Under the pieces are notes generated by a model that was not told the origin of the DNA, did not search any database, and was given only the letters and a program-made list of their open reading frames with translations. The position numbers were made by a program, and so were the translations under genes. From positions 29,796 to 93,795 of the IMG/VR virus record IMGVR_UViG_3300045988_024527: DNA of 64,000 nucleotides. The stretch is one strand, 5' to 3'. Numbering within the stretch: the first letter of the stretch is position 1; the number at the start of each line of letters is the position of its first letter. Origin of the DNA: a virus (Duplodnaviria > Heunggongvirae > Uroviricota > Caudoviricetes). This document shows, one piece after another, positions 28,613-58,008 of this stretch.

Positions 28613-28883
28613 AGCAGATTGGGAAATAAAAGACCTAATAAGTGATGCTGGAAATGGTTGTGAGATGTATATGATTCGTGGCCATATACCAGACCCATTA
28701 GCTCTTGAGATGATTGACCGTCACACAAACGGATTCTACAAAGAACTAGGTGAACCAAATGTTGAACGCACTTGGACAAAACCAGTACCAGATAGCACAG
28801 GCAACTGTTCAGTAATCTATCACATTGTGAATCCACAAAAATGCAAAACAGCTATGGCTGTGACATTCGTAACTTTTGATTGA
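28605..28883 (+). CDS. hypothetical protein
   Basis: 92 aa ORF. Confidence 0.35.
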   Translation: MAKADWEIKDLISDAGNGCEMYMIRGHIPDPLALEMIDRHTNGFYKELGEPNVERTWTKPVPDSTGNCSVIYHIVNPQKCKTAMAVTFVTFD

Positions 28884-29775
28884 GAGTAAAACTATGAAAA
28901 CATCTATCCGTGTTATAATTCATTCACCGACAAAAGGGTCTCATGAAGAAGAGTTTAACCTCATCCAGTTCCCTTCTGGTGAGATTGGTGGACACTTTTC
29001 ACAAGAGCTTGTTGACTTTACTGCTCACGCAGCATCATCCATCAACAATGTGATTATGATTGTAAAAGGTTATGATAAAGACACATTGTTTGCTGTGGCA
29101 CTTGCTAAAGAAGCAATTGATGATTTAGTTCCTCATGAATATGCCTTAAAGACTGTCATTTTTTACTACTTACCAAATGCACGATATGACCGTCACATGT
29201 TTAAAGGTGATGCAGCAGCTTTGAAGGTTTTTGCTAAACAGGTTAATGCAATGGGGTTTGGTGCAGTCTGTGCAGTTGACCCTCACAGTTATGTACCAGA
29301 CAACCTATTTAACTGCTTCCAAAGCATTCCTCAAAAGGAAGTCGCAGTTCACTATGCGAATGACCCTCTGGTTGATTACTTAGTAGCCCCAGATGCAGGT
29401 GCTTCTAAGAAGATTGCAGAGACTGCTAAAGAGGTGGATAAACCATACATCACAATGTCTAAAGTACGTAACCTTAAGACTGGTGAAATTACTGGTATGC
29501 GAATCCTTGATGATGTTGATTTGACCGATAAAACTGTTATGATTCTCGACGATATCTGTGATGGTGGTCGAACATTCATAGAAGCAGCTAAACATCTTCG
29601 TGAAGCAGGTGCAAAACGTGTGGAACTCTATGTAACACATGGTATCTTCTCTAAAGGTGTTGAAAACCTTCTTGACAATGGTATTGACCACATTTACACT
29701 ACAAACTCTTTAGGGGAAGCTAAAGACCGTGGCTTAACACATTATGGTCAAGTTACTGTAGCAAACCTTGATTAG
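28876..29775 (+). CDS. ribose-phosphate pyrophosphokinase family protein (PRPP synthetase-like; possible ADPR-PP synthetase)
   Basis: PRPP-binding motif MILDDICDGGRT, VAPDAGASKK. Confidence 0.75.
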   Translation: MIESKTMKTSIRVIIHSPTKGSHEEEFNLIQFPSGEIGGHFSQELVDFTAHAASSINNVIMIVKGYDKDTLFAVALAKEAIDDLVPHEYALKTVIFYYLPNARYDRHMFKGDAAALKVFAKQVNAMGFGAVCAVDPHSYVPDNLFNCFQSIPQKEVAVHYANDPLVDYLVAPDAGASKKIAETAKEVDKPYITMSKVRNLKTGEITGMRILDDVDLTDKTVMILDDICDGGRTFIEAAKHLREAGAKRVELYVTHGIFSKGVENLLDNGIDHIYTTNSLGEAKDRGLTHYGQVTVANLD

Positions 29776-30293: not shown

Positions 30294-32075
30294 ATGAGTA
30301 AGTCACTTTACGCAGTACCAGCAGGTCTTAATGCAGATGCTTACAAGGCATCACATATATATCAGTATCCAGATGCTACGCAATATCTTATGTTGAACCT
30401 GACACCACGTAGTGACAAATGGTTTAACAGCCCCTTAGCAATTGATGGTGTAGTTGCTTTTGGTATTCAACGTTTTGTTAAAGATTACTTGATAGACCAC
30501 TGGAACGCCACTTTCTTTGAACGTGACAAAAAAGAAGCCATTGACGAAATCTTAGAAGTCATGAATGGTGTTCTGGGTAAAGATGCTATCGGTCGAGAGC
30601 ATTGGGAAGCACTTCACGACTTAGGTTATCTACCAGTTGAAGTATACGCTGTAGAAGAAGGCACAGTCGTCCCTATGCGTGTCCCAATGATTGTCTTCCA
30701 GAACACTGTTTCAGGTTTCCATTGGGTAGCAGGTTATCTGGAAGATGCTTTCTCTGCTGAGATTTGGAAGGCTTGCACTATTGCAACTATTGCATTGCAT
30801 TACAAACGTATCTGTAAGAAGTGGGCTGACCTTACTTGTGACAACGACTTGCATTTACCTTATCAGTGCCATGACTTTGCTATGCGTGGTATGTCCGGCT
30901 TTACTGATGACGCATTTAACGCTGTAGGCCACTTAACCAGCTTTAAAGGGACTGATAGCTTCCCTGCTGTATATACAGCTAAACGAATCTATGGACAGTC
31001 CTACCCAATCTCTGATATTGGTAGCTCTGTACCAGCCACTGAGCACTCTGTAATGTGTGCAAACATTGCTTGGGAAGGTGGTAATGAGTTGATTGAAGAA
31101 GAAAGACGCTTTAAAGGTGAGTTACAAACCTTCCGTCGTTTCTTAACAGAAACTTATCCAACTGGTATTGCAAGTGTTGTTTCAGATACTTATAACTTCT
31201 GGAGAACTGTGTCAGAAATCTTACCAGCACTCCGTAAAGAAATTATGGAACGTGATGGCAAACTGGTAATTCGCCCTGACTCTGGAGACCCTGTACATAT
31301 TGTCACAGGTTATAAAGCAATCCACTTAGAGTGTGCTAAGAAGGCTTATTACGAGCACCTAAGCAAGCTAGAGGCAAGTGACACAATGTTGAATGCTATT
31401 CTGAACATGAAGCTTGAAAACATCAACTATGGTATTGCTGGATGGCTACTGTCAGAAGGCTACGAAATGGTTGTTGACAGAGAAGACTTTGAAGTTGCTG
31501 ATACAGTGCTGTTGAAAAATGCTTATATGGTTGGTTCTGCAAACGTTGTAACACGTCCTGTAGCGGAGATTGATGGAGCTATCAAGACACTGTATAACAT
31601 CTTTGGGGGAACTATTAACTCTAAAGGGTTTAAGGTACTGGATGAGCATATCGGCCTTATCTATGGTGACTCTATCACGCTGGAACGTGCAAACGAAATC
31701 CTGAAGCGTCTGTATGAAATGGGTTTTGCAAGCTCTAACGTAGTGTTTGGCGTAGGCTCTTACACTTACCAGTACATGACTCGTGACACCTTTGCATTTG
31801 CTGTCAAAGCAACTCTTGCAAGCATTGGTGGTAAAGAGATTATGCTTGCAAAAGACCCTAAAACAGATAGTGGTGTTAAGAAATCTGCCTTTGGTGGTGT
31901 AGCACCTATGTGGGATGGTGACAAGCTGAAAGCTATAGATGGCTATGGATTCCAGAGTTTTGCAGATGTACTTGACCACCCAGCTTGTGCCTTACGTTTA
32001 GTCTTTAGTGACTCTGAGCAGTTCGGTTACACAACTCTTGGGGATATTCGAAATAATATTGACAAGCAGCTTTAA
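30294..32075 (+). CDS. nicotinamide phosphoribosyltransferase family protein (NadV/Nampt-like; possible Namat)
   Basis: HDFAMRGMSG and GHLTSFKGTDS resemble Nampt active-site regions; 593 aa. Confidence 0.7.
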   Translation: MSKSLYAVPAGLNADAYKASHIYQYPDATQYLMLNLTPRSDKWFNSPLAIDGVVAFGIQRFVKDYLIDHWNATFFERDKKEAIDEILEVMNGVLGKDAIGREHWEALHDLGYLPVEVYAVEEGTVVPMRVPMIVFQNTVSGFHWVAGYLEDAFSAEIWKACTIATIALHYKRICKKWADLTCDNDLHLPYQCHDFAMRGMSGFTDDAFNAVGHLTSFKGTDSFPAVYTAKRIYGQSYPISDIGSSVPATEHSVMCANIAWEGGNELIEEERRFKGELQTFRRFLTETYPTGIASVVSDTYNFWRTVSEILPALRKEIMERDGKLVIRPDSGDPVHIVTGYKAIHLECAKKAYYEHLSKLEASDTMLNAILNMKLENINYGIAGWLLSEGYEMVVDREDFEVADTVLLKNAYMVGSANVVTRPVAEIDGAIKTLYNIFGGTINSKGFKVLDEHIGLIYGDSITLERANEILKRLYEMGFASSNVVFGVGSYTYQYMTRDTFAFAVKATLASIGGKEIMLAKDPKTDSGVKKSAFGGVAPMWDGDKLKAIDGYGFQSFADVLDHPACALRLVFSDSEQFGYTTLGDIRNNIDKQL

Positions 32076-36306: not shown

Positions 36307-36855
36307 ATGAAGAAATTGATTCTAGGTTTGTGCTTAATGTTTACAGCACACTTATCTTATGCAGTTGACTGCCCAGAGCTATCAATTAGCCAAAGAGTAA
36401 ACATGTTAAAAGCTTACCAGTATGGTGAGAATAACATGGGTAAAGGTTGGGGTATCACTCTAGCTGCTATAGCCTTACAAGAGTCAGAGTTAGGTCTGAA
36501 GGTAGAGAATAAAAAGACACATGATTATGGTATTTTCCAGAATCACTTGAAGACTGTTGTAAAGCGTAACAAAATTAGCCCTAATGTGGCTAAAAAGAAA
36601 CTCTTAAAAGACTTTGACTATGCTGCGAAGGAAACCCACAAAGAGCTTGAGTTTTGGACAAAGGTACATGGTCATCCAAAGTCAAAGAAGACTTTACAAA
36701 AAGTTTTAGCATCTTATAATGCTGGGTATTCGTACAAAATCCCTAAAGCTAAGAAGTATTCTCAAGATGTCTATAACAACATGAAAGTTATTGCTCAATG
36801 TGAATTTGCAACAAACATTTCTAAGGTAAACCATGAAAAAATTAAGAAAGTTTGA
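36307..36855 (+). CDS. secreted lytic transglycosylase-like protein
   Basis: signal peptide MKKLILGLCLMFTAHLSYA; SLT-like ALQESELG, YGIFQ, YNAG. Confidence 0.55.
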   Translation: MKKLILGLCLMFTAHLSYAVDCPELSISQRVNMLKAYQYGENNMGKGWGITLAAIALQESELGLKVENKKTHDYGIFQNHLKTVVKRNKISPNVAKKKLLKDFDYAAKETHKELEFWTKVHGHPKSKKTLQKVLASYNAGYSYKIPKAKKYSQDVYNNMKVIAQCEFATNISKVNHEKIKKV

Positions 36856-37528
36856 TGAAGTACTGTGCCATGCTTATGACTTGCATCCCCATGACTTAGG
36901 TCTTGATTCTGGCATATGGACTCCAGAGCAGTGTAGAGACTTTGAAGATACTGCAAGGGAGGTTGTATGCTCACTTGAAGATTTCCACACACCGGAGCCA
37001 ATTGTGAATGTTGTCGATAAAGAGACTGGGAAAGCTATAGGTGTAAGACGTGATAGTCTAGTCATAGTCAATAAAGACCTTGTAGAGAAAGGAAATCTTA
37101 TCCTAGCAGATATTGGTGGTGTTCTAACATATTTTAATCACGAAGGTTACTCAGCAGAGTTGACTGATGGGTCATTTTCACAGTACACCAACTTACTTGA
37201 TGCTGTAAGAGCAAAACCAACATATGTTTTCCACATCATTGATGCAATTGCAAATCATGCAGCCGTTGGGTTCTTGACAGCAAGAGGTGAGACTCAGAGA
37301 ATACCTACTGAGATGTTTTTAAGACACAATATAGAACATGATTACTTGCTTTTTATGCGTGGCTTTGGAACAAATTCTCTAAGTGCAGAAAGTTTAAAGG
37401 TTAGGATGATTCAGTCTTGCATTCTTCCTTATTTTAATATAGTATGTTTTATAGAAGATACAGAGAAGAATGTGCAGAAGGTGAACAGAATCCTTCCACA
37501 CATCAAAACCATGTTAGTTAAACATTGA
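36833..37528 (+). CDS. hypothetical protein
   Basis: 231 aa ORF. Confidence 0.5.
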   Translation: MKKLRKFDEVLCHAYDLHPHDLGLDSGIWTPEQCRDFEDTAREVVCSLEDFHTPEPIVNVVDKETGKAIGVRRDSLVIVNKDLVEKGNLILADIGGVLTYFNHEGYSAELTDGSFSQYTNLLDAVRAKPTYVFHIIDAIANHAAVGFLTARGETQRIPTEMFLRHNIEHDYLLFMRGFGTNSLSAESLKVRMIQSCILPYFNIVCFIEDTEKNVQKVNRILPHIKTMLVKH

Positions 37529-38003: not shown

Positions 38004-38015
38004 GGTTAAGATACA

Positions 38016-38036
38016 GGCTCCTTCGGGAGCCTTTTT
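38016..38036 (+). terminator. intrinsic terminator
   Basis: GGCTCC-TTCG-GGAGCC + TTTTTC. Confidence 0.7.
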
Positions 38037-39164: not shown

Positions 39165-39372
39165 AAAGACACGTAAGATTGTAAGGTCAGCAGTATTCAA
39201 AGGGAGGCATGAAGTCATCCCGTTTGCAGAAGAAGATGTGTTAACTTACAAGAAGGTGATAAAACGTGAGTGCAGTAACCATTTCCGTGACTTCTTCTCT
39301 GAACCATTAGAAGATTTTAAAAGCCGTTGTGGTAAAGGCATCATCATCCAAGAGGCAATTATTCATGGCTGA
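39139..39372 (+). CDS. hypothetical protein
   Basis: 77 aa ORF. Confidence 0.4.
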   Translation: MRVILARDKKTRKIVRSAVFKGRHEVIPFAEEDVLTYKKVIKRECSNHFRDFFSEPLEDFKSRCGKGIIIQEAIIHG

Positions 39373-39565
39373 CTTCTGCAAAGATTGTGCTATCGAAATG
39401 TTCGGACGTGATACAGGTGACTTAAAAGGTCTTATCACTGAAGATGACTTTAAAGCTGGTTATGCAATGCCAGTAATCTGTGAAGGTTGTGGATGTATCT
39501 GGGTAGACCACGAAGGGCAACGTGTAAAGCCTTCAGAAGATAAAGAATCTTGGGAGAGATGTTAA
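39329..39565 (+). CDS. small Cys-rich protein
   Basis: CKDC...CEGCGC. Confidence 0.4.
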   Translation: MVKASSSKRQLFMADFCKDCAIEMFGRDTGDLKGLITEDDFKAGYAMPVICEGCGCIWVDHEGQRVKPSEDKESWERC

Positions 39566-40345
39566 ATGGGTATTGTAAAAGTTGTAAAAGGTAACTTACT
39601 AGCTGCCTTCAAAAACACAGACATTGAATTAATTGCTCATGGTTGCAACTGTCGTAACCTCATGGGTGCTGGAATCGCTCAAAAAATTGCTAAGATTTTC
39701 CCAAAAGCTGAAGAAGCTGACCGGAAATTCCATAAGAAATTTGGCTATAGTGCTCATGATATCGGATACCAGATGATTGGTGAAGTGTCACATGCTCGAA
39801 CGGAGTACGGTTACATTTTTAATCTATACACACAGTTGGATGTTGGGAAGTGCGCATCATACCGATACTTAGTAGAGGCACTGGAAAAACTCCGCAAGTT
39901 TTGCTGGATGAACTCTATCCGTAAAATTGGATTACCTATGATTGGTGCAGGTATTGGGGGTTTAGATGCGGAGGCTGTAAAAAGCATCATTAATAGTGTC
40001 ATGCACAATGTTGATGTGTACCTTTACGTCTATGATAAAGAGATGGCAAGTGTAGTTACCCCTAAGTATGCTACCTCAGCACCACAATTCTATGATGGTG
40101 TCGTGCTAAGTGACGGGAAGACCAATCAAGTTACCCTCTATCAACTTGTTGAAGGTAAGGTCGAGGTTAGTTACCCTCTGGTTAGTGAGATGGGTATGTG
40201 CAACAGTGAAATGTTCCCAGTTGACCCGTTTGGAAGATATGAAGGTGTATTCTTTGATAACTACCCAGCAGCGTACATCTACACAACAAATCAGGATGAA
40301 GTTCACTACTTGCTGTATTCTAAAAAGTTCAAATTCATAAGCTGA
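39566..40345 (+). CDS. macro domain protein (ADP-ribose binding/hydrolase fold)
   Basis: macro signatures AHGCNCRNLMGAGIAQKIAKIFP and GLPMIGAGIGGLD; extra C-terminal domain. Confidence 0.7.
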   Translation: MGIVKVVKGNLLAAFKNTDIELIAHGCNCRNLMGAGIAQKIAKIFPKAEEADRKFHKKFGYSAHDIGYQMIGEVSHARTEYGYIFNLYTQLDVGKCASYRYLVEALEKLRKFCWMNSIRKIGLPMIGAGIGGLDAEAVKSIINSVMHNVDVYLYVYDKEMASVVTPKYATSAPQFYDGVVLSDGKTNQVTLYQLVEGKVEVSYPLVSEMGMCNSEMFPVDPFGRYEGVFFDNYPAAYIYTTNQDEVHYLLYSKKFKFIS

Positions 40346-40378
40346 TTAGTACTTCACAGTATCTACAAATCATCTAAG

Positions 40379-40426
40379 AAGGCTGCCTAACCCATTGAGA
40401 AATTTAAGGTAAGGCGGCCTTTTTCA
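40379..40426 (+). terminator. stem-loop with U-tract, probable terminator
   Basis: AGGCTGCC...GGCGGCCT + TTTTC. Confidence 0.4.
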
Positions 40427-40429
40427 TTT

Positions 40430-40675
40430 TCAATTTGTGCAGGTATCTGTAGGGGTCTGCACAGATATCCCAAAAAATCTCATCGCCGGATAGAAAAATC
40501 ATTTTCAAAACGTGCAGACCCCGCTCAGGTCGGGCAAGAAAAATCATTTTAGAATCGTGCAGGTAGGTTTTTATAGAGAGCCAGACCAGCCCCTCTCCCC
40601 CTCTTACTCCCCCTCTCCCCAAAAGTCAAGAGAAAAATTTGTAGCGGATTGAAAAATAATTCTTGATTTGTGTTC
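40430..40675 (+). promoter_or_regulatory. operator/iteron-like direct repeats (4 copies of TCATTTTNNAANNGTGCAG) with inverted repeat and C-rich tract
   Basis: copies near 40433, 40498, 40544, 40655; inverted TGTGCAG..CTGCACA at 40436-40463; CCCCTCTCCCCCTCTTACTCCCCCTCTCCCC at 40589-40620. Confidence 0.6.
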
Positions 40676-40741
40676 TGTTTTGTGGTAGTCGTGCGCGCCC
40701 GTTCCTCTCCCAACCTTACAAAAAATATTTAATAAAAACTG

Positions 40742-40770
40742 TTGACACACAAAACAGGTTTACGTAATAT
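40742..40770 (+). promoter_or_regulatory. consensus sigma70 promoter
   Basis: TTGACA-17 bp-TAATAT about 50 bp upstream of first cassette gene. Confidence 0.65.
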
Positions 40771-40819
40771 TTGCATCAGACGGGCAAGCAAGCCCACTTC
40801 CTAAACTGGAGATTCTAAA

Positions 40820-41026
40820 ATGTTATATCAACGCCAATTGATGATTGTAGACAATAACAAGACTAAAAAGCGCCGCTTCTTTATGCTTATTTGTGATGTA
40901 TGGCAACGTATCTCAGAAAAGGATTTTGATAAATATGTTGATACATCAATCAGGTCTGATTGTTACTTGACAAATCGCACAAGACAATTTACAAGACATA
41001 CGGCAATTTACTATTACGATAAATAA
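40820..41026 (+). CDS. small hypothetical protein (cassette array gene 1)
   Basis: preceded by CCTAAACTGGAGATTCTAAAATG leader. Confidence 0.5.
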   Translation: MLYQRQLMIVDNNKTKKRRFFMLICDVWQRISEKDFDKYVDTSIRSDCYLTNRTRQFTRHTAIYYYDK

Positions 41027-41037
41027 AAGTACTTTAC

Positions 41038-41112
41038 AAGGGGCTTAAAAGTTGATATCTTAAGCCCCAGATAAAGAGCTTTACTACTAAGTCCTAAACT
41101 GGAGATTCTAAA
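41038..41112 (+). repeat. cassette boundary type B (stem-loop + conserved RBS leader)
   Basis: GGGGCTTA..TAAGCCCC hairpin + AGATAAAGAGCTTTAC + CTAAACTGGAGATTCTAAAATG; copies at 42889 and 43681; variant at 41640. Confidence 0.75.
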
Positions 41113-41625
41113 ATGAAAACTGTAGACGCTACCTTTGAAGTTGTAAAAGAAAAATTCACTATTATTTATGAAGCTGTGAATTGCTTTGAAGCAAGCCATA
41201 ATCTTGATAATTGGGAGTTTACAGACACCCATCAGGGCGGCGTGACTATTAAAAACCCCAACTATCAGCGTAATGATTTTAAATATGCAATCCCTTTGCA
41301 TTACAGCCTTAAACAGCTTTCAAGTGACTATGCAAAACAGGGCCGGGAAAATCCATCAAAAGAGGCTTACATTAGCTTACAGAAAGAATTGGAAAGAGAT
41401 TTAGAGGCTTCAGAATACAACCTTGCCGCGAAAGTTGTCGATGCAAATGGTCAAACAATTTTAGACAGTTTTTATATTGGTTACGCTTTTGATTGGTGCT
41501 ATAGTGACGGCGATGATTTAGAGGATAGACTAAAAGAAGAGGTGAGCAATTCAGACGCAGAAACTGAAGTATTAGAACGTTTGGAATCATTAAAAGACTC
41601 AGTGATGAATATCTTTAAGAACTAA
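41113..41625 (+). CDS. acidic hypothetical protein (cassette array gene 2)
   Basis: 170 aa, Asp/Glu-rich C-terminal half. Confidence 0.55.
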   Translation: MKTVDATFEVVKEKFTIIYEAVNCFEASHNLDNWEFTDTHQGGVTIKNPNYQRNDFKYAIPLHYSLKQLSSDYAKQGRENPSKEAYISLQKELERDLEASEYNLAAKVVDANGQTILDSFYIGYAFDWCYSDGDDLEDRLKEEVSNSDAETEVLERLESLKDSVMNIFKN

Positions 41626-41639
41626 ATAGATTTCTTTAC

Positions 41640-41717
41640 ACGGGGTTATCAAGCTGATAAGATAGCCCCAGATAAAGAGCTTTATTCAAATCAACCCTTA
41701 AACTAGGAGACTCTAAA
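41640..41717 (+). repeat. cassette boundary type B variant
   Basis: GGGG..CCCC hairpin + AGATAAAGAGCTTTA + CCTTAAACTAGGAGACTCTAAAATG. Confidence 0.65.
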
Positions 41718-42014
41718 ATGAAATTATCAAATAAAGTCCGTGAAAATCTAAGCAAGTTACTCAATAAAATTGATTTCATTGAAACATCAAGGAATAGTCA
41801 TGATGTTATGGAATGGTTACACGGAAAAATCAAAGGCCGTCGTGTAGTGATTTGCTTATGGAATAGTTGTAGGGAATATAAAAAACCTGTATTGCAAGTC
41901 AATATCTACGATGATACTTTTAAAAGCCCTGTAAAGTCTAAAAGCGATTTATTAGAATCTTATGAGATAACTGTAAATGGCAAGGTATCACGTAAAGAGG
42001 AAACACCATGTTAA
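41718..42014 (+). CDS. small hypothetical protein (cassette array gene 3)
   Basis: 98 aa ORF. Confidence 0.5.
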   Translation: MKLSNKVRENLSKLLNKIDFIETSRNSHDVMEWLHGKIKGRRVVICLWNSCREYKKPVLQVNIYDDTFKSPVKSKSDLLESYEITVNGKVSRKEETPC

Positions 42015-42340
42015 TGACTGGTATCACTGCAATCATTGCCATTTTCGCGCTCTATAAGGCGTATAAGGCCTATAATCTAGCAAATAAGGCAATCACACAG
42101 CAGGTTAGCAATAACTTGGTAGAGAGCTTTCTAGGACGCCTCAGTGATGAGCAAATAAAGCGGCTAGATATGAGCTTCAGATATAAAGCGAAAACCTATC
42201 AGATAAGTGACATCTTCAAAGATGATTTTCAGTTAGTCGATGATTATAATTCACTGATAAATGCTTTGAATATCAGTGACTTAAAAGACTACTACGCTGT
42301 AATTGTTCAAGAGTTGAGCAAACGAAAACAAAATTCTTGA
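42008..42340 (+). CDS. small membrane-anchored hypothetical protein (cassette array gene 4)
   Basis: N-terminal hydrophobic helix GITAIIAIFALY; overlaps previous stop. Confidence 0.5.
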   Translation: MLMTGITAIIAIFALYKAYKAYNLANKAITQQVSNNLVESFLGRLSDEQIKRLDMSFRYKAKTYQISDIFKDDFQLVDDYNSLINALNISDLKDYYAVIVQELSKRKQNS

Positions 42341-42344
42341 CACT

Positions 42345-42430
42345 GATTTTTAGATAGGCTAAATTACACATCAACGGGGAGGGAATGACCTTCCCCACTA
42401 AATAAAGTCCTAAACTGGAGATTCAAAAAA
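42345..42430 (+). repeat. cassette boundary type A (promoter + stem-loop + conserved RBS leader)
   Basis: TTGACA-17-TAAATT then GGGGAGG-GAATGAC-CTTCCCC hairpin then ACTAAATAAAGTCCTAAACTGGAGATTC..ATG; copies at 43385, 44636, 45397, 45990. Confidence 0.75.
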
Positions 42431-42589
42431 ATGTTTTGTGCAGGTGATAAAGTTGTCTGGAATGATATAGATGACGGTTTATGTACGAAAGTTGTTGTTA
42501 TCTTAGAAATTGATTATATCACTGGTGTTGCAACTGTAGCAGATAATGATATAATCTTTGATGTCTTAATTAGTGAACTGTCAAAATAA
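42431..42589 (+). CDS. small hypothetical protein (cassette array gene 5)
   Basis: 52 aa ORF below track cutoff, directly after type A leader. Confidence 0.45.
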   Translation: MFCAGDKVVWNDIDDGLCTKVVVILEIDYITGVATVADNDIIFDVLISELSK

Positions 42590-42614
42590 AATCCTTAAAC
42601 TAGGAGCTTTTAAA

Positions 42615-42887
42615 ATGTATACTACCAACAACGGTCGCACCTTAAACGTAACCCTTCGTCACTATGTGAACGGTGTAATGCACTTCGAGGATTTACAAGC
42701 CGAACAACATATCTTAGATTGGCAACTTGCAGGACTACAAAAAACTGCTACAGGATACGGTAAAAAGATTCCAACCAGTTGGAAAGTACACTACGAAGGA
42801 CGTTTGCGCAGAATTTATCAGGATGTATGTAGCAATAGTGCATCGAGTTACATCATAGTAAAAGGTAAAAAACTGCATTTAGTGTAA
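42615..42887 (+). CDS. small hypothetical protein (cassette array gene 6)
   Basis: start placed at ATG after CCTTAAACTAGGAGCTTTTAAAATG leader (track ORF 42573 starts upstream). Confidence 0.5.
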   Translation: MYTTNNGRTLNVTLRHYVNGVMHFEDLQAEQHILDWQLAGLQKTATGYGKKIPTSWKVHYEGRLRRIYQDVCSNSASSYIIVKGKKLHLV

Positions 42888-42888
42888 A

Positions 42889-42972
42889 GTACTTTACAGG
42901 GGGCTTATAGTTCGATAAAGTAAGCCCCAGATAAAGAGCTTTACCACTAAGTCCTAAATTGGAGATTCTAAA
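42889..42972 (+). repeat. cassette boundary type B
   Basis: near-identical to 41038-41112. Confidence 0.75.
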
Positions 42973-43377
42973 ATGGCTATTAACAACCGTGAGTTATCAA
43001 TCTTAAAAGCGCGTTTGACCGTTAACCGGATTAATGTTATCACGTCATCAGCACCGGACGAAACATTACACAACATTATCGGGAAGATTCAAAGCGTTAT
43101 CTTAGACGTTGAAAATGTAAAAAGCTCATTGGCTGACGTTGCAGCAGGTATCACGCTAGACGGCGCACAATATGAAATGGCTGACATGTTAGGCAAATCA
43201 AAGATAATGAATAAAGAATTAGACTTGAAAATATTTCGATTTGCTGTCAAAGTGTGGCTATCTGTCGAGTATGACGCTAATTTTGCAATCGCTGATTTCT
43301 TTGCCACTTGGTTACAACGTAATTTGACAAATCACGATTTTCGTGATGTCTGTGATGTAATTTATGCAGAACTCTAA
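42973..43377 (+). CDS. hypothetical protein (cassette array gene 7)
   Basis: 134 aa ORF. Confidence 0.5.
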   Translation: MAINNRELSILKARLTVNRINVITSSAPDETLHNIIGKIQSVILDVENVKSSLADVAAGITLDGAQYEMADMLGKSKIMNKELDLKIFRFAVKVWLSVEYDANFAIADFFATWLQRNLTNHDFRDVCDVIYAEL

Positions 43378-43384
43378 AAATTTT

Positions 43385-43478
43385 GTTGACACTGGTTTTT
43401 AGATAGATTAAATTACACATCAACGGGGAGGGAATGACCTTCCCCACTAAATAAAGTCCTAAACTGGAGATTCTAAAA
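43385..43478 (+). repeat. cassette boundary type A (promoter + stem-loop + RBS)
   Basis: near-identical to 42345-42430. Confidence 0.75.
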
Positions 43479-43682
43479 ATGGCTATTATTAACGGCTTAA
43501 CCATTGAAACTACACACATCAAAGATATTAAAGTTGGTGATATAGTCCTTTCCCACGGCGTAGAAAAAACTGTCACTGCAAAGGATATCAAAGAGGATTC
43601 TTTCATGGGTAGGACTCTTTTCGGTGATTCTTATTGTTTAGGTTACCTTGCAGTTTTAAAAGTTGTCAAAAATAACAAATAA
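43479..43682 (+). CDS. small hypothetical protein (cassette array gene 8)
   Basis: 67 aa ORF. Confidence 0.5.
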   Translation: MAIINGLTIETTHIKDIKVGDIVLSHGVEKTVTAKDIKEDSFMGRTLFGDSYCLGYLAVLKVVKNNK

Positions 43683-43769
43683 AGTACTTTACAAGGGGCT
43701 TATAGTTCGATAAAGTAAGCCCCAGATAAAGAGCTTTACCACTAAATCCTTAAACTAGGAGATTCAAAA
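43681..43769 (+). repeat. cassette boundary type B
   Basis: near-identical to 42889-42972. Confidence 0.75.
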
Positions 43770-44336
43770 ATGAAATGCTATCACGGCACTACTCTGAAAA
43801 ACTTTGTAAACCTGCTTAAAGGTGGCGACAAGCCGGAAGGTATCTGGAACTGCTCTTACATGGATGATTGTTTTTACGTTTACCCGATGGATAAGATTAT
43901 CAAGACGGAATGCCTGGAAGATGAAGAAGCCTCTTACATCCGTGAACGCTGCATTCAAAACGCTTTAGAGTCGGGGCTTATTACGGCAGCTTTCCAAATG
44001 GAAACGCAGGAAGTGATTGTAATTGAGATGGATATCCCAGAGGAAGAACTTGAGGACGATTATTCTTGTGACAACATGAGCGAAATCGCCAGCTTTACCG
44101 GTTACTTTGATAAAGATTGGATTATCGGTATTCACTCGACGAAATTTAGTGCAATGTATGCGCCATTCTTTGTACCTGATACAACTAACCACAATTTGGG
44201 CTATATTGACGATGATTTGTTGAGTATTGCAAAAATTGTACAGAATAGCGGGGATACTTCTTCTGTGTTTTGTGACCTGTTGGATAAAATTACCGAGAAT
44301 CTCACAGAGCGCAATCTAAGCGACTTTTTAGTCTAA
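43770..44336 (+). CDS. acidic hypothetical protein (cassette array gene 9)
   Basis: 188 aa, strongly acidic (IPEEELEDDYSCDNMSE). Confidence 0.55.
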   Translation: MKCYHGTTLKNFVNLLKGGDKPEGIWNCSYMDDCFYVYPMDKIIKTECLEDEEASYIRERCIQNALESGLITAAFQMETQEVIVIEMDIPEEELEDDYSCDNMSEIASFTGYFDKDWIIGIHSTKFSAMYAPFFVPDTTNHNLGYIDDDLLSIAKIVQNSGDTSSVFCDLLDKITENLTERNLSDFLV

Positions 44337-44399
44337 GCAGTACAAAGACACTAATTTCCAACTTAAGGCCCATACAGGGCCATTTAGAGGGCCTAAATC

Positions 44400-44633
44400 A
44401 TGCTTACAACCGTTTATCTCATCCTTTCTATTTGTAATGGTCATTCATGTGATTTTAAAGGGCTTGAGGAGTTTACAGGAAGTAAAGAAAATGCTATTCA
44501 AGTTTGTCAGATAGCAAGACAAGACTATCCCGCAAGTGATGATATTCAGTGTTACTTTAAGACAGAAGATGGCGACGGAATCTATTTCGACAGTGTTGAT
44601 GGTCAATATGAAATTATCATTGAAAAAGACTAG
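44400..44633 (+). CDS. small Cys-containing hypothetical protein (cassette array gene 10)
   Basis: 77 aa; different upstream leader. Confidence 0.45.
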   Translation: MLTTVYLILSICNGHSCDFKGLEEFTGSKENAIQVCQIARQDYPASDDIQCYFKTEDGDGIYFDSVDGQYEIIIEKD

Positions 44634-44635
44634 AC

Positions 44636-44727
44636 AAGCCTGATAAAAACCTGTAAATTGTCAATCAACGGGGAGGCGATAACACCCCCCCCCACTAAAT
44701 AAATTCCTAAACTGGAGATTCAAAAAG
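44636..44727 (+). repeat. cassette boundary type A variant
   Basis: -10 TAAATT, hairpin GGGGAGGCGATAACACCCCCCCCC, leader ACTAAATAAATTCCTAAACTGGAGATTC. Confidence 0.65.
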
Positions 44728-44874
44728 ATGACGCATACTATTGAGACAGTTTTTAACAACCCTGTATTCTCAGAGATGATTTTCTCATTTGTCATAATGT
44801 TACTAGTAAAAACCATGAAAAAAGCAGAAAAACTTCATTTAAAGAAAAAATCTATTGTAAACCGTTTTAAGTAA
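44728..44874 (+). CDS. small hydrophobic protein (cassette array gene 11)
   Basis: 48 aa ORF below track cutoff with hydrophobic core. Confidence 0.4.
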   Translation: MTHTIETVFNNPVFSEMIFSFVIMLLVKTMKKAEKLHLKKKSIVNRFK

Positions 44875-44921
44875 AGATAAAGTATCTAGCAATCTCACTT
44901 CCTAAACTGGAGAATCTAAAA

Positions 44922-45263
44922 ATGGCTTATGTAACCGTAATTACCGATAAAGCTGGCTCATCTTGGTCAACTCAAGTAAGTGATAAGATGTCACCTATGC
45001 AGTGCCTAAAATACTTTGAGCAGTGGAATAAAGGCGAGGATGTAAACCCATTTCAAGTGATGCAGGTTATCCATGTAGATAACGAAGGGAATAAAACGAC
45101 TCTGAATAGTGAGTACTACGCAAGCCGTTTTGAAACGAGAAGTAAGACAATGAAGCTTTTACGTGAATCCGGTTATGCCCATATCGCCGCGTTAATCTGG
45201 GATGACCTTCTAAAAAGTCAGCGTATCAGCTATGTAAAACCTGAAAAAATATTCATCAGTTAA
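44922..45263 (+). CDS. hypothetical protein (cassette array gene 12)
   Basis: 113 aa; leader TTCCTAAACTGGAGAATCTAAAAATG. Confidence 0.5.
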   Translation: MAYVTVITDKAGSSWSTQVSDKMSPMQCLKYFEQWNKGEDVNPFQVMQVIHVDNEGNKTTLNSEYYASRFETRSKTMKLLRESGYAHIAALIWDDLLKSQRISYVKPEKIFIS

Positions 45264-45396
45264 TCAATAACTTACAAAAAACTTTTAAAAAAGTATTGAC
45301 AATACCCCTTGACATTGGTAACTTTGTTCGAGGGGGTTTATCTAAAAGGGATTCACTTAAAAGATTCTTTATAGATAAGCTTAAAAAATTGCTTGC

Positions 45397-45483
45397 AATC
45401 AGCTATCAAAACAAGTAAATTACTAATCAACGGGGAGGCAATAACATCCCCACTAAATAAATTCCTAAACTGGAGATTCTAAA
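45397..45483 (+). repeat. cassette boundary type A variant
   Basis: TTGCAA-17-TAAATT, hairpin GGGGAGGCAATAACATCCCC, conserved leader. Confidence 0.65.
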
Positions 45484-46014
45484 ATGAACAAATTTCAAGC
45501 TATCAACTTCATTCGTTCAAATGCTGTAATGTCTAAGCCTGTTAAAGATACCTATGAATTTCGCTGCAATGGGGTACACTTTGCAACCATCACTAAATCA
45601 GAAAACGGGGCTTATTACGTTCATCGTCGTAATGTTTATACCGTTGTAGTCTCTCACTTTATGCAAGCTGTAGCAGAGTTATTACCGTTATTCTTAGAGA
45701 TTTACTTAGATGAGTGTAAAAACGTTCACAACCACGTTAAAAACCTTTTAAACGGTTATAAAATGGCTTATGAGCGTTCTATCAAGTCCTTAAACAAGTT
45801 CTATAAAGCCCCTGCAAATACTGTATCAATAGCTTATGATGTAAGCGGTGAAATGGTCAACCTCTCCAATGTAGAACAAATTGGCCTTTATGACTTACGT
45901 CCTAGCGGTTACTCTAAGACACTGGGAGAGGGCTTATCTTTCAATATCAAGAACTTAGAGAAAACTTTAAAAGATATTGAAAAAGATATTGACGAGACAA
46001 TCAAAAATCTGTAA
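45484..46014 (+). CDS. hypothetical protein (cassette array gene 13)
   Basis: 176 aa ORF. Confidence 0.5.
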   Translation: MNKFQAINFIRSNAVMSKPVKDTYEFRCNGVHFATITKSENGAYYVHRRNVYTVVVSHFMQAVAELLPLFLEIYLDECKNVHNHVKNLLNGYKMAYERSIKSLNKFYKAPANTVSIAYDVSGEMVNLSNVEQIGLYDLRPSGYSKTLGEGLSFNIKNLEKTLKDIEKDIDETIKNL

Positions 46015-46081
46015 ATTGTCAATCAACGGGGAGGGAATGACCTTCCCCACTAAATAAAGCCCTAAACTGGAGAATCTAAAA
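45990..46081 (+). repeat. cassette boundary type A
   Basis: TTGACG-17-TAAATT overlapping stop of previous gene; GGGGAGGGAATGACCTTCCCC hairpin. Confidence 0.7.
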
Positions 46082-46330
46082 ATGGCAACTATCCGCGCTA
46101 CTGTTAACGAGTTCGGTTTTTCCTCTCTGGATGTTAAATTTGACATTGCAGGCACTGATAATGCCTTTGAAATGGTGAAAGGTCTTATCAGTCAGACCAT
46201 CAAAGATTATAATCCTTCGGATGAGTTCTGGGAGGAAACAAAACAAGAAGTTCTCAAGGATGGTTATACTTATCACTATTGGGGAGAAAAAATCGTCTCC
46301 CTGTACTACAACAAACAAGATTATAACTAA
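46082..46330 (+). CDS. small hypothetical protein (cassette array gene 14)
   Basis: 82 aa ORF. Confidence 0.5.
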   Translation: MATIRATVNEFGFSSLDVKFDIAGTDNAFEMVKGLISQTIKDYNPSDEFWEETKQEVLKDGYTYHYWGEKIVSLYYNKQDYN

Positions 46331-48115
46331 TCGACGCAGCGGGGCTAAATAGCCCCAGATACCTTTATACAGCCCCTCATAGGGGCTTTTTTACGTCTAT
46401 CGAATCCTTATACAATCTCTTTCCATCACCTTTCCAGAATCTTATCAGACCTTAAAAGCAATAACTCTATAGTCTACTCTATAACCTCTTATCAAATCAA
46501 CTTAAATAAAAGCCAATAACCCCAGAAAGGGGATGGCCCATTTAAACGCTCTATAACGCTCTATAACAGCCTTATTAACCTAACTTAAGGGATTGCATTA
46601 ACCTATCTTAAAAAGCTCTTTACAGGGCTTTATAGAGACTTAAAAGAATCTTATAAGGGTGTAAGCTTATAGGCTGGTTAGTATCTTGTGAATGGTTAAA
46701 CAACCCCCTTGCTAGTCACTAAAAAGCATGTTATAGGGGCTATAAAGTTACTTCAAAGTTACGTAAAAGTAGCTTAAAAGTTACGTAAATGCTAGCCCCC
46801 TTAACATTTTCTTAACATTTTCTTAACAAACCCTACACAGTTATACTTTTAAGACACTTGTTAGCAACTTGTTAGCCCCTTGTTAAATCTCTGTTAAGAC
46901 CACGTAAAAGCCTTGTAAGAGTCTTTGACATAGCCTTAAAAGCTTCTGTAAAGCCCTATAAAGAGGTGTCTGTACAGTTGGGGGGTAGATACTAGGAAGA
47001 GGCTTAAAAGAGCTTATAAAGAGCTATAGAGAGCTTTTAAGAGGGCTATTTAGAGAATCACTAAGAAGGGAAAGGGAACGATAAGAAAAAGAGAGTTATG
47101 TTTGTAAACAACCACTGTGACCATGTTAATAGCTTGTTAAAAAGATTAAACACTTGTTAGAAACTTGTTAATTATCTTAATTGGTATTGTTACCAATCCC
47201 TACAAAATAACTCTTAAAAATTAACTAATTAGTTCTTGTTAGTCATCTGTTAAGCCTCTGTAAAGCCTATTCAGCACTTGTTAATTGGTATTGTTACCAA
47301 TCCCTAGAAAACTGTTACATCCTTGTTAGTTCTGTTAAGAATCTGTTAAGACCTTTGAAGAGATGTTAAGAAGATGTGAGAACTGTTAAGAGATTGTTAA
47401 GGATATTTTAAAATTTTGCAAAGTACTTGTAAGGGAGCTGTTAAGGGCTACCAAGCAGATATACATCATGAGGTAGATTCTACCGAATCAACTAGACAGA
47501 TATTTTTCAGTTCCTTCAAAGACCCTAAAAAATGACTTGATAGTCCTATTTTATAAAAATTTTAAAATTCTGAATAATTACCTATACAGTCTTTTAAAAA
47601 TACAGGTAGAAACAGGCTTATAAGATACCTTGTTAGTACCGTGTTAGACCTTGTGAGATAAGGTCTGTAAAGATATTCCTGTTAAGTTTGTTAAAACAGT
47701 CTATATAGAGGCTTAGTAATACCTAGTGAACACCTATAGAGGGTATCATAGGTAACCTAGAGATTAAGAGATGTATAGGAGCTTCTAAGAGGGTGTAGAG
47801 GGATGGTTAAGGTGATTGTATAGGTTGTTAAGAAGGTTTGTTAGAAGAGTGTTTAGAAGGCTTGTTAGAGGGCTAGTTAGAAGGGTTATACAGAGGGGCT
47901 ATTAAGACCACTAGATAGTTACTAAGATACTATATAGTACTATATAACTATATATAGAGAGTAAGATTAAGAAGGTTGTTAAGAAGGATAGATATTTTGT
48001 TCACATATGATGGTGACCCAGAGGTTGGGACAACCGATAAAATTTTATAAAAAATATAAATTTCGTAAATTTTACTCAATAAAAAGCCCCCAATTAAGGA
48101 GGCTCTTAAGATATT
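46331..48115. repeat. 1.8 kb ORF-free region dense in short degenerate direct and inverted repeats
   Basis: no ORF of 60 aa or more; families CTTGTTAG/CTGTTAAG/GTTAGAAG, duplicated TTAATTGGTATTGTTACCAATCCCTA (47170, 47280), tandem CGCTCTATAA and CATTTTCTTAAC doublets; between convergent gene blocks. Confidence 0.7.
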
Positions 48116-57403: not shown

Positions 57404-57480
57404 CTCTGTTTAGCTCAGATTGGTAGAGCGTTCCGTTTGGGGCGGTAAGGCCGGAGGTTCAAGTCCTCCAACAGAGACCA
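57404..57480 (+). tRNA. tRNA-Pro (anticodon UGG), hand-folded
   Basis: acceptor CTCTGTT/AACAGAG, T-arm GGAGG-TTCAAGT-CCTCC, loop TTTGGGG, CCA encoded. Confidence 0.55.
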
Positions 57481-57487
57481 AATTAAT

Positions 57488-57565
57488 GTTCCAGTAGACA
57501 AAATGGTATAGTCACCACTCTTTCAAAGTGGATATCTGAGGGTTCAAATCCCTTCTGGAACGCCA
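57488..57565 (+). tRNA. tRNA-Glu (anticodon UUC), hand-folded
   Basis: acceptor GTTCCAG/CTGGAAC, anticodon stem CCACT/AGTGG loop CTTTCAA, CCA encoded. Confidence 0.55.
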
Positions 57566-57650
57566 GTTTTGACAGAAGACCGATTACAGCAAACAACTTT
57601 TACTTTTCGCGCATAGAAAACATAAAAAGCTTGGTCTGGTCATTAAGAAT

Positions 57651-57727
57651 CGCGGGTATAGAGAAAGGGCGTCTCACATGTCTCATTAGCATGGTAACGG
57701 TTGGTTCGACTCCAACACCCGCCTCCA
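57651..57727 (+). tRNA. tRNA-Met/Ile2 (anticodon CAU) with unpaired 1:72
   Basis: anticodon stem CATGT/GCATG loop CTCATTA, T-arm GTTGG-TTCGACT-CCAAC, C1-C72 mismatch. Confidence 0.45.
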
Positions 57728-57889: not shown

Positions 57890-57898
57890 AATTTAAAT

Positions 57899-57986: not shown

Positions 57987-58008
57987 ATACTTAGCGAGAT
58001 ACTTAGTT

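What the first reader, a model, noticed from the sequence alone, without database searches (positions are those of the whole stretch)
39566..40345. Macro-domain protein adjacent to the cassette array
Clear macro-domain glycine-rich signatures (NLMGAGIAQKI, GLPMIGAGIGGLD) fused to an about 100 aa C-terminal extension. Macro domains bind or hydrolyse ADP-ribose derivatives; in a phage this suggests reversal of ADP-ribosylation-based host defence, possibly linked to the NAD module.
Basis: partly seen in the sequence, partly recalled or inferred. Interest (0 to 1): 0.5.

Follow-up and report, generated by a model that had tools for sequence, protein, structure and literature searches.

The report
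Phage macrodomain, likely anti-DarT2 enzyme
This Felix O1-like phage gene encodes a real ADP-ribose-removing (macro) domain of the same family as phage T4's Tk.4/AdfM, so it most likely strips the ADP-ribose that the bacterial DarT2 toxin puts on phage DNA; it carries an extra, fast-evolving tail domain of unknown role.

Summary
ORF 39566-40345 (+, 259 aa) is a high-confidence macrodomain (residues 1-160) fused to a roughly 100-aa beta-rich C-terminal domain (CTD).

The window is a Felixounavirus. The exact protein is already in GenBank (VVC17350.1), annotated as a Poa1p-like macro protein.

- **Family.** It belongs to PHROG 335, which includes T4 Tk.4 (34% identity, shared HGCNC / NLYTQ / IGAGIGG motifs). 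A 2025 preprint shows Tk.4 ("AdfM") is needed for T4 resistance to DarTG2.
- **Active site.** The TARG1/DarG catalytic lysine is replaced by an invariant Gln (Q90) next to Asn28. This matches Streptomyces SCO6735 (N27/Q85), a proven thymidine-ADP-ribose DNA hydrolase.
- **Best explanation (about 0.55).** An orphan, DarG-like eraser of DarT2 DNA ADP-ribosylation.
- **CTD.** It has no Pfam, PDB or BFVD match and occurs only on Ounavirinae-type macro proteins. It diverges about twice as fast as the macro domain and shows patchwise replacement.
- **Allele.** The whole gene is a sharply bounded allelic cassette, about 41% aa identity to the Felix O1 allele inside 90-100% identical flanks.
- **NAD link.** A functional link to the Prs/Nampt module is not supported.

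This is a new variant of a known kind, of moderate interest.

The parts
39566..40345 (+). Macro-CTD gene, 259 aa including the stop codon. It is the last gene of its transcription unit. Its ATG directly abuts the TAA of the upstream 66-78 aa Cys-rich ORF (TAAATG), with a GGGAGAG Shine-Dalgarno-like site 8-14 nt upstream.
   Evidence: Identical protein VVC17350.1 in VpaE1_ev035.
39566..40045 (+). Macrodomain, residues 1-160: ALC1-like / TARG1-DarG-Poa1p class, Tk.4/AdfM family.
   Evidence: Pfam, PHROG 335, PDB sequence hits, AlphaFold2 + Foldseek, DarG profiles, BLASTP to T4 Tk.4 at 34% identity, E 7e-24.
39638..39679 (+). H25-G-C-N28-C-R-N-L-M-G-A-G-I-A38: conserved His, the macro Asn (N28) and the first Gly-rich ADP-ribose loop (an Nx6[GA]G[VLI] motif).
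   Evidence: H25, G26, N28 and A38 are invariant in 34 homologues. N28 aligns with SCO6735 N27 and PhiKZ AdfM N23 (PMC9411070, PMC13309987).
39821..39835 (+). N86-L-Y-T-Q90 motif. Q90 occupies the position of TARG1 K84 and SCO6735 Q85, and (from the papers' equivalences) DarG K80.
   Evidence: Invariant in 34 homologues. HMMER alignments to TARG1 and register with SCO6735. Q85A abolishes SCO6735 activity (PMC9411070).
39929..39967 (+). G122-LPMIGAGIGGL-D134: second Gly-rich (diphosphate-binding) loop. TARG1 D125 aligns with G131.
40046..40342 (+). C-terminal domain, residues 161-259: a linker, the conserved P173-x-F-x-D177-G178 motif (40082-40099), then six beta strands and a terminal helix. 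An orphan, fast-evolving domain.
40376..40424 (+). Intrinsic-terminator-like hairpin: a 13-bp outer stem with a nested small stem, then UUUUU. It closes the transcription unit.
   Evidence: RNA fold dG -23.1 kcal/mol, z -4.4, 0 of 200 shuffles as stable. The 3' arm and T-run are conserved in Felix O1, and the 5' arm changes in a way that could still pair; this reading is my own and was not folded.
39600..40500 (.). Allelic cassette. Against Felix O1 this segment is only ~44-69% identical at the nucleotide level (41% aa), inside flanks that are 90-100% identical.
   Evidence: Sliding identity and alignment of the 3' boundary. The window allele occurs in 13 of ~257 felixounavirus-type records.

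Best explanation
The gene encodes an orphan, antitoxin-like ADP-ribosyl glycohydrolase made early by a Felix O1-like phage.

Proposed mechanism. The N-terminal macrodomain binds the ADP-ribose that the host DarT2 toxin (DarTG2 defence system) attaches to thymidine in single-stranded phage DNA. It hydrolyses the ribose-base bond, releasing ADP-ribose and restoring a replicable template. Catalysis would follow the lysine-independent SCO6735-type mechanism: Asn28 locks Gln90 so that it positions the distal ribose, and an activated water does the chemistry.

The ~100-aa C-terminal domain is a lineage-specific accessory module. I infer, with low confidence, that it contributes substrate or partner recognition.

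Shown here:
- the macro fold;
- family membership with T4 Tk.4;
- conservation of the Asn/Gln pair;
- the restricted distribution and rapid divergence of the C-terminal domain.

Inferred:
- enzymatic activity;
- thymidine-ADPr DNA as the substrate;
- the anti-DarTG2 role;
- any role of the C-terminal domain.
For: 1. Fold and family. Pfam Macro passes its cut-off. The AlphaFold2 model has pLDDT 92, and its top structural matches are the DarG macrodomains, TARG1 and Poa1p.
2. The only anti-phage defence profile hit is DarG, on its macro half: PADLOC E 2.3e-16, NCBIfam antitoxin_DarG E 2.6e-15.
3. Same PHROG (335, E 2e-86) and same motif set as T4 Tk.4: 34% identity, E 7e-24. Tk.4 scores 130 bits against an HMM built from this family.
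4. tk.4 was the single HIDEN-SEQ hit under DarTG2, and a clean tk.4 deletion sensitises T4 to DarTG2 (bioRxiv 10.1101/2025.11.20.689424).
5. N28 and Q90 are invariant in 34 homologues and sit in register with SCO6735 N27/Q85. SCO6735 efficiently removes thymidine-linked ADPr from DNA and rescues E. coli from DarT. Its Q85A mutant is dead and N27S nearly dead (PMC9411070).
6. Consistency check. T5 is DarTG2-sensitive (PMC11825919) and has no family member in its first 86 kb.
7. Arms-race signature. The gene is a sharply bounded allelic cassette, and the C-terminal domain is patchily replaced.
Against: - No biochemical or genetic test exists for any Ounavirinae member.
- Identity to T4 Tk.4 is only 34%, and enzymatic activity of T4 Tk.4 itself is inferred, not shown, in the preprint.
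- The N-terminal half is by sequence closest to yeast Poa1p, an ADP-ribose-1''-phosphate phosphatase, so a small-molecule substrate remains possible.
- The Gln at the key position is also found in non-catalytic ALC1 macrodomains (PMC9411070).
- SCO6735's DNA-contacting K34 is not conserved; it aligns with A35.
- The protein scores far below NCBIfam's DarG cut-off (56.5 vs 250 bits).
Confidence: 0.55

Rival explanations
1. Small-molecule ADP-ribose processing. The enzyme acts on soluble ADPr derivatives. Candidates are ADP-ribose-1''-phosphate (Poa1p-like phosphatase, linked to RNA repair), O-acetyl-ADP-ribose, or TIR/Thoeris signals such as 2'cADPR, 3'cADPR or His-ADPR, which it would destroy to blunt signalling immunity.
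For: - The N-terminal half is most similar to Poa1p: HSCNCNGSWGGGIA..YPKAE versus HGCNCRNLMGAGIA..FPKAE, E 1.5e-5. Poa1p H23 corresponds to the invariant H25.
- Public annotations call it 'phosphatase' or 'O-acetyl-ADP-ribose deacetylase'.
- A PNKP-type HAD-like gene (PHROG 'polynucleotide kinase', window 36833-37528) lies ~2 kb upstream in all four clades examined.
- Macro domains have been predicted to target cADPR-type signals (PMC9503650).
Against: - Those annotations are name transfers, not tests.
- Poa1p S30 is not conserved; it aligns with L32.
- The PNKP-like gene is separated from the macro gene by a terminator-like hairpin (38015-38032) and the spanin genes. The synteny is what common ancestry would give anyway.
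- The only experimental phenotype for the family is against DarTG2.
Confidence: 0.15
2. Eraser of protein or RNA ADP-ribosylation. It reverses modification of phage or host proteins, or of RNA, made by other host ADP-ribosyltransferase toxins. Alternatively it tunes ADP-ribosylation made by the phage itself.
For: TARG1 and SCO6735, the closest characterised relatives, also de-modify proteins (PMC9411070). TARG1 removes phosphate-linked ADPr from RNA and DNA ends (PMC11833690).
Against: - No ADP-ribosyltransferase gene was seen among the genes examined near the locus. The window was not scanned exhaustively.
- SCO6735 is inactive on 5'-phosphate-linked RNA/DNA ADPr.
- No genetic evidence links the family to such systems.
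Confidence: 0.15
3. Mainly a binder, not an enzyme. The protein neutralises a host factor stoichiometrically, for example by binding DarT directly through the macro domain and/or the C-terminal domain, or it sequesters an ADPr-containing ligand.
For: - Catalytically dead SCO6735, DarG and TARG1 all inhibit DarT by interaction (PMC9411070).
- DarG's second domain and phage AdfB act by binding DarT (PMC11481870).
- The C-terminal domain is hypervariable, as expected for a surface that tracks a variable partner.
- Gln at the key position also occurs in the non-catalytic ALC1 macro.
Against: - Invariance of H25, N28, D52 and NLYTQ across very divergent members fits a conserved catalytic site better than a binding surface.
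- The C-terminal domain has no similarity to DarG's DarT-binding domain.
- Its net charge ranges from -5 to +3, so it is not a consistent acidic DNA mimic.
Confidence: 0.08
4. Part of the phage NAD+ module. It feeds ADP-ribose or related products to the Prs/Nampt (NARP2-type) pathway.
For: Prs-like and Nampt genes are in the same window at 28876-29775 and 30294-32075. Both themes concern NAD-derived metabolites.
Against: - Nampt/Prs salvage uses nicotinamide and PRPP, not ADP-ribose (established pathway knowledge; PMC13464706 abstract).
- The genes are 7.5 kb apart in different transcription units.
- The two families have different distributions across phages.
Confidence: 0.03

Closest known systems
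Phage T4 Tk.4 = AdfM ('anti-DarT factor Macrodomain'), PHROG 335
   Same: - Same protein family: PHROG 335; 34% identity over 156 aa.
- Shared HGCNC, NLYTQ and IGAGIG motifs, including Gln in place of the DarG/TARG1 lysine.
- Both are stand-alone phage genes with no toxin partner.
   Different: - T4 Tk.4 is a 155-aa single domain. The window protein adds a ~100-aa C-terminal domain found only in Ounavirinae-type phages.
- The anti-DarTG2 phenotype is shown for T4 only.
Streptomyces coelicolor SCO6735 (PDB 5E3B), a Gln-type ALC1-like macrodomain hydrolase
   Same: - Same macrodomain class.
- The Asn/Gln pair is in the same register (N27/Q85 versus N28/Q90).
- It is an orphan enzyme without an adjacent DarT, shown to cleave thymidine-linked ADPr on DNA.
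   Different: - It is a bacterial chromosomal protein, and the sequence similarity is low (profile E 5.5e-11).
- SCO6735's Val25 and Lys34 correspond to Gly26 and Ala35 here.
- SCO6735 has no C-terminal domain.
DarG antitoxin of DarTG2 (Thermus 5M31/5M3E, M. tuberculosis 5M3I), and chimallivirus AdfM (PhiKZ gp104)
   Same: - Best structural matches.
- The DarG profile matches over its macro half.
- Both have a two-domain layout with an N-terminal macro domain.
- PhiKZ gp104 is a proven phage eraser of DarT2 marks (PMC13309987).
   Different: - DarG and PhiKZ gp104 keep the catalytic Lys (K80/K78, FPTK), whereas this family has LYTQ.
- PhiKZ gp104 scores 133 bits on the DarG profile; this protein scores 58.
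- This protein's C-terminal domain is unrelated to DarG's DarT-binding domain, and there is no neighbouring darT.
Human TARG1/OARD1 and yeast Poa1p
   Same: Top PDB sequence hits. The C-terminal half of the macro domain resembles TARG1 and the N-terminal half resembles Poa1p.
   Different: - The TARG1 Lys84/Asp125 dyad is replaced by Gln90/Gly131.
- Poa1p acts on a soluble phosphate ester.
- Both are eukaryotic housekeeping enzymes.

Membership tests
Macro domain superfamily (PF01661) | Sequence match above Pfam's gathering score | tested here: met
   30.8 bits vs cut-off 22, residues 25-141 on profile positions 2-117 of 118.
Macro domain superfamily (PF01661) | Three-layer alpha/beta/alpha macro fold | tested here: met
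   AlphaFold2 pLDDT 92. Foldseek probability 1.00, target-normalised TM 0.76-0.87 to DarG, TARG1 and Poa1p.
Macro domain superfamily (PF01661) | Conserved Asn plus two Gly-rich ADP-ribose-binding loops | tested here: met
   N28-x6-A35G36I37 and G127AGIGG132; N28, G127, G129 and G132 are invariant in 34 homologues.
T4 Tk.4 / AdfM family (PHROG 335) | Profile and pairwise homology with shared motifs | tested here: met
   PHROG 335 E 2e-86. BLASTP 34% identity, E 7e-24. Tk.4 scores 130 bits on the family HMM.
T4 Tk.4 / AdfM family (PHROG 335) | Confers resistance to DarTG2 | not testable with these tools
   Shown only for T4. Requires phage genetics.
T4 Tk.4 / AdfM family (PHROG 335) | Single-domain protein of ~150-165 aa | tested here: not met
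   259 aa with an extra domain. Non-Ounavirinae homologues cover only residues ~3-160.
Gln-type ALC1-like macro hydrolases (SCO6735 subclass) | Gln at the TARG1 K84 / DarG K80 position, held by the conserved Asn | tested here: met
   Q90 aligns with TARG1 K84. Register N86-L-Y-T-Q90 equals SCO6735 N81-M-x-x-Q85, and N28 equals N27 (with numbering from PMC9411070).
Gln-type ALC1-like macro hydrolases (SCO6735 subclass) | Hydrolysis of thymidine-linked ADP-ribose on ssDNA | not testable with these tools
   Needs an enzyme assay.
Gln-type ALC1-like macro hydrolases (SCO6735 subclass) | Extended mobile loop with DNA-contacting lysines (K34, K89) | tested here: inconclusive
   K34 aligns with A35. 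A Lys (K95) lies 5 residues after Q90 but is not conserved in the family.
DarG antitoxin (NCBIfam NF048014, PADLOC PDLC02990) | Whole-protein score above the curated cut-off | tested here: not met
   56.5 bits vs cut-off 250. Only profile positions 2-154 of 338 match.
DarG antitoxin (NCBIfam NF048014, PADLOC PDLC02990) | C-terminal DarT-binding domain | tested here: not met
DarG antitoxin (NCBIfam NF048014, PADLOC PDLC02990) | Adjacent darT toxin gene | tested here: not met
   The flanking genes are small phage ORFs in PHROGs of unknown function.
DarG antitoxin (NCBIfam NF048014, PADLOC PDLC02990) | Catalytic lysine (K80) | tested here: not met
   The TARG1 K84 position is Q90, and K84 is equivalent to DarG K80 per PMC9411070. 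No Lys lies at or next to this position: it reads LYTQL, versus FPTK in PhiKZ gp104. Thermus DarG itself was not aligned residue by residue here.
Poa1p ADP-ribose-1''-phosphate phosphatase | Residues probed by mutation in the Poa1p structures (H23, S30, F152) | tested here: inconclusive
   H23 corresponds to the conserved H25, and S30 to L32, which is not conserved. F152 was not aligned. Overall profile E is 1.8e-10.

The most novel reading that the evidence does not exclude
The orphan C-terminal domain is a rapidly diversifying recognition module, for example for DarT2 variants or another host immunity protein. If so, the Ounavirinae protein would be a two-pronged orphan antitoxin that both erases the DNA mark and binds the toxin. 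That would be convergent with DarG's macro plus DarT-binding architecture but built from an unrelated fold. The deeply divergent alleles exchanged among Felix O1-like phages would then set which host DarTG2 (or other) variants each phage can overcome.
Probability: 0.15. Interest if true: 0.6.

Novelty: new variant of a known kind. Interest (0 to 1): 0.38.

Why it matters
Felix O1-like phages are widely used for Salmonella and E. coli typing and biocontrol. Knowing that they carry a probable anti-DarTG2 eraser, in at least two very different alleles, would help predict host range on strains with DarTG.

The family also raises a mechanistic point. T4 AdfM and its relatives (2736 phage records) lack the DarG/TARG1 catalytic lysine and instead share the Asn/Gln arrangement of SCO6735. 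Phage counter-defence against thymidine ADP-ribosylation may therefore mostly use the lysine-independent mechanism.

The fast-evolving C-terminal domain is a concrete handle for asking how such erasers are tuned or targeted.

Tried and rejected
2. **C-terminal domain distribution.** A profile search of 1.84e9 representative proteins found only macro-fused relatives and fragments. It also found weak multi-stretch hits in long proteins; the one examined, P0054, looked like repeated beta-propeller-type units and was judged spurious. An HMM search found no paralogue in the window or in the T4 tk-vs region.
3. **C-terminal domain as an acidic ssDNA mimic like DarG's second domain.** Rejected on charge, since net charge ranges from -5 to +3 across clades, and on the lack of any DarG C-terminal match.
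4. **A conserved partnership with the upstream Cys-rich (CxxC...CxxC) small ORF.** A second clade also has a sequence-unrelated Zn-ribbon-like ORF there, but two further clades do not. Dropped.
5. **An RNA-repair operon with the upstream PNKP-like gene.** The synteny is conserved, but the genes are in separate transcription units and the synteny is explicable by ancestry. Kept only as a minor rival.
6. **A NADAR partner as in T4.** The BASEL phages with AdfN (Bas60-62) turned out to be Vequintavirinae, not Felixounavirus. I did not search for a NADAR gene in the window.
7. **Literature on Felix O1 or Ounavirinae versus DarTG.** Nothing relevant found.
8. **Rfam scan of the conserved non-coding stretch after the gene.** Nothing near threshold.

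Full report
**1. What is there.**

The window is a Felix O1-like myovirus (genus Felixounavirus). A 4-kb stretch around the finding matches 258 phage records, nearly all Escherichia, Salmonella, Shigella or Citrobacter felixounaviruses. The closest at this locus is Escherichia phage VpaE1_ev035.

Both quoted glycine-rich motifs are present. Its ATG abuts the stop codon of the preceding small ORF (TAAATG), and a GGGAGAG ribosome-binding site lies upstream.

The gene is followed by a strong hairpin plus U-run at 40376-40424 (dG -23.1 kcal/mol, z -4.4). It is therefore the last gene of its transcription unit.

**2. The macrodomain is real.**

- Pfam Macro is matched above its gathering score.
- PHROG 335 is matched at E 2e-86.
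- The best PDB sequence hits are TARG1/OARD1, the DarG macrodomains, Poa1p and SCO6735.
- An AlphaFold2 model built on 34 homologues has mean pLDDT 92 and pTM 0.88.
- Foldseek against the PDB ranks the Thermus aquaticus DarG macrodomain first, then TARG1, Poa1p and M. tuberculosis DarG, all with probability 1.00.
- Among anti-phage defence profiles the only hit is DarG, and only on its macro half (PADLOC E 2.3e-16, NCBIfam E 2.6e-15, well below the equivalog cut-off).
- The identical protein is already public (VVC17350.1), annotated 'Phage protein with Macro domain, Poa1p_like family'. Other records call it 'phosphatase'. The domain call itself is therefore not new.

**3. Which macrodomain.**

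A tblastn search finds relatives in 2736 phage records. Outside the felixounavirus-type phages the hits listed cover only residues ~3-160. They include the gene between tk and vs in T4-like phages.

I read T4 tk.4 directly. It is 34% identical over 156 residues (E 7e-24) and shares the HGCNC, NLYTQ and IGAGIG motifs. It scores 130 bits against an HMM built from the window protein's family.

A 2025 preprint reports that tk.4 was the single transposon-sequencing hit when T4 was grown on a DarTG2 host. A clean deletion sensitises T4 to DarTG2. The authors named the gene adfM, and enzymatic removal of ADP-ribose was proposed, not shown (bioRxiv 10.1101/2025.11.20.689424).

Independently, PhiKZ gp104 in chimalliviruses was also named AdfM and was shown to de-ADP-ribosylate DarT2-modified DNA (PMC13309987). 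That protein is a much closer DarG relative, scoring 133 bits on the DarG profile against 58 for the window protein.

**4. Active site.**

HMMER alignments to TARG1 place Gln90 of the invariant NLYTQ motif at the position of the catalytic Lys84, and Gly131 at Asp125. PhiKZ gp104 has FPTK there.

However, the Streptomyces coelicolor macrodomain SCO6735 (PDB 5E3B, also a hit) has Gln85 at this same position. It removes thymidine-linked ADP-ribose from DNA more efficiently than DarG or TARG1 and rescues E. coli from DarT. It is inactivated by Q85A and almost inactivated by N27S. A water-mediated, lysine-independent mechanism was proposed for it (PMC9411070).

The HMMER alignment of the window protein to 5E3B, combined with the paper's numbering, puts N28 on N27. 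It also puts N86-L-Y-T-Q90 in register with N81-M-x-x-Q85. N28, Q90, H25, D52 and the Gly loops are invariant in all 34 homologues aligned.

So the whole Tk.4 family, including this protein, is a Gln-type ALC1-like macrodomain. None of the passages I read from the two AdfM papers mentions this.

**5. Best explanation and its limits.**

Taken together, the evidence points to an orphan antitoxin-like eraser of DarT2 marks on phage ssDNA. The evidence is the fold, the DarG-only defence hit, family membership with T4 AdfM, and the SCO6735-type active site.

As a small consistency check, T5 is strongly restricted by DarTG2 (PMC11825919). It has no family member in the 86 kb covering its pre-early, early and replication genes.

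I put this explanation at about 0.55. No Ounavirinae member has been tested, identity to Tk.4 is modest, and activity of the Gln-type phage proteins has not been shown biochemically. The N-terminal half is closest in sequence to Poa1p, a small-molecule phosphatase.

The rivals are small-molecule ADPr processing (including Thoeris signals), protein or RNA de-modification, and a mainly stoichiometric binder. They are listed with their tests in the Rival explanations section.

**6. The C-terminal domain (CTD).**

Residues ~161-259 fold confidently into six strands and a terminal helix.

- There is no Pfam match.
- There is no BFVD match.
- A profile search of 1.84 billion representative proteins finds the domain only at the C-terminus of macro proteins of ~228-281 aa and in gene fragments.
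- The contigs I checked share the rIIB, PNKP-like and macro synteny of Ounavirinae-type phages.
- Only a P-x-F-D-G motif at its start is conserved.

The domain diverges about twice as fast as the macrodomain: mean pairwise identity is 27% against 54%.

In one pair of relatives (P0010 and P0014) codons 1-184 differ by 8 synonymous and 2 non-synonymous changes. Codons 185-252 differ by 14 synonymous and 28 non-synonymous changes. Nucleotide identity falls to 55-70% in a ~180-nt patch flanked by 93-100% identity. This is patchwise replacement plus relaxed or diversifying selection.

The domain is unrelated to DarG's DarT-binding domain and is not consistently acidic. Its function is unknown. A partner- or substrate-recognition role is an inference only.

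**7. The locus as an allelic cassette.**

Against Felix O1 the window is 90-100% identical on both sides. It drops to ~44-69% nucleotide identity from ~39600 to ~40500, which covers the gene body and its terminator region. The two proteins are 41% identical overall, 53% in the macro domain and ~23% in the CTD.

The window allele is found in 13 phage records of both E. coli and Salmonella phages. About 244 other records carry Felix O1-type alleles. Nearly all felixounaviruses therefore keep a full-length gene while exchanging very different versions, a pattern common for counter-defence genes.

**8. The NAD idea.**

Prs-like and Nampt genes are present at 28876-29775 and 30294-32075. They lie 7.5 kb upstream, beyond rIIA, rIIB, the spanins and terminator-like hairpins.

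Nampt occurs in 2029 phage records with a different host spectrum from the macro family. The Nampt/Prs route uses nicotinamide, not ADP-ribose. I find no support for a functional link.

**9. Verdict.**

The protein is a new architectural variant (macro plus orphan hypervariable domain) of a recently recognised kind of phage counter-defence enzyme.

It is of moderate interest for three reasons:
- the Gln-type mechanism that it shares with T4 AdfM;
- the fast-evolving accessory domain;
- the allele exchange.

Noticed in passing
window 40346-40820: A ~470-nt non-coding stretch follows the macro gene. After the terminator hairpin come three copies of a ~20-40-nt element ending in (A)TCATTTTCAAAACGTGCAG (four copies in Felix O1). 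A C-rich tract follows (CCAGCCCCTCTCCCCCTCTTACTCCCCCTCTCCCC, ~40590-40625). From ~40500 on it is ~97% identical to Felix O1. There is no Rfam match near threshold.
   Followed up: partly
window 40740-46100: The 'cassette array'. Each small ORF is preceded by a repeated 40-104-nt module: a promoter-like TTTACA/TTGACA, a GC hairpin (GGGGCTTA..TAAGCCCC or GGGGAGG..CCCC), then TCCTAAACTGGAGATTCTAAAATG with the RBS and start codon. There are eight or more copies (families D1-D7). It resembles the promoter-stem-loop units described for mobile early-gene cassettes in T4-like phages; that comparison is from my own recollection and was not tested.
   Followed up: partly
window 46740-46890 and 47150-47170: Runs of 11-nt-periodic direct repeats (AAAGTTACnTA and ACTTGTTAG types, D8 and D10). 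They are iteron-like and could be an origin or a regulator-binding array.
   Followed up: no
window 23031-24230 and 25045-25917: The anaerobic ribonucleotide reductase NrdD is split into two ORFs. The N-terminal part carries the ATP-cone, and the C-terminal part carries the glycyl-radical domain. About 800 nt lie between them, suggesting an intervening mobile element or intron.
   Followed up: no
window 55823-57238, next to tRNA genes 57404-59675: A 471-aa protein with DUF2828 and DUF7788 domains sits immediately upstream of a nine-gene tRNA cluster.
   Followed up: no
window 36833-37528: A 231-aa ORF lies in a PHROG named 'polynucleotide kinase' (phrog_3970), with only a weak match to the PNKP HAD-phosphatase region and no Pfam hit. 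It lies ~2 kb upstream of the macro gene in all four Ounavirinae-type clades examined.
   Followed up: partly
window 39329-39565 (probable start 39365): A small Cys-rich protein (C5, C8 ... C40, C43; a zinc-ribbon-like pattern) is translationally coupled to the macro gene. A sequence-unrelated CxxC...CxxC protein occupies the same place in one other clade (L005 5810-6001) but not in two further clades.
   Followed up: yes
L008 1381-1560 versus L009 (P0010/P0014 clade): A ~180-nt patch inside the CTD coding region is 55-70% identical between two phage contigs that are otherwise 93-100% identical. It holds 28 non-synonymous and 14 synonymous codon changes, so it is a sub-domain mosaic or hypervariable patch.
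   Followed up: yes
L011 6447-8094 (phage T5, T5.102 and T5.105): T5 carries two genes annotated as Sir2-like NAD-dependent enzymes in its early region. It has no Tk.4-family macrodomain in its first 86 kb.
   Followed up: no
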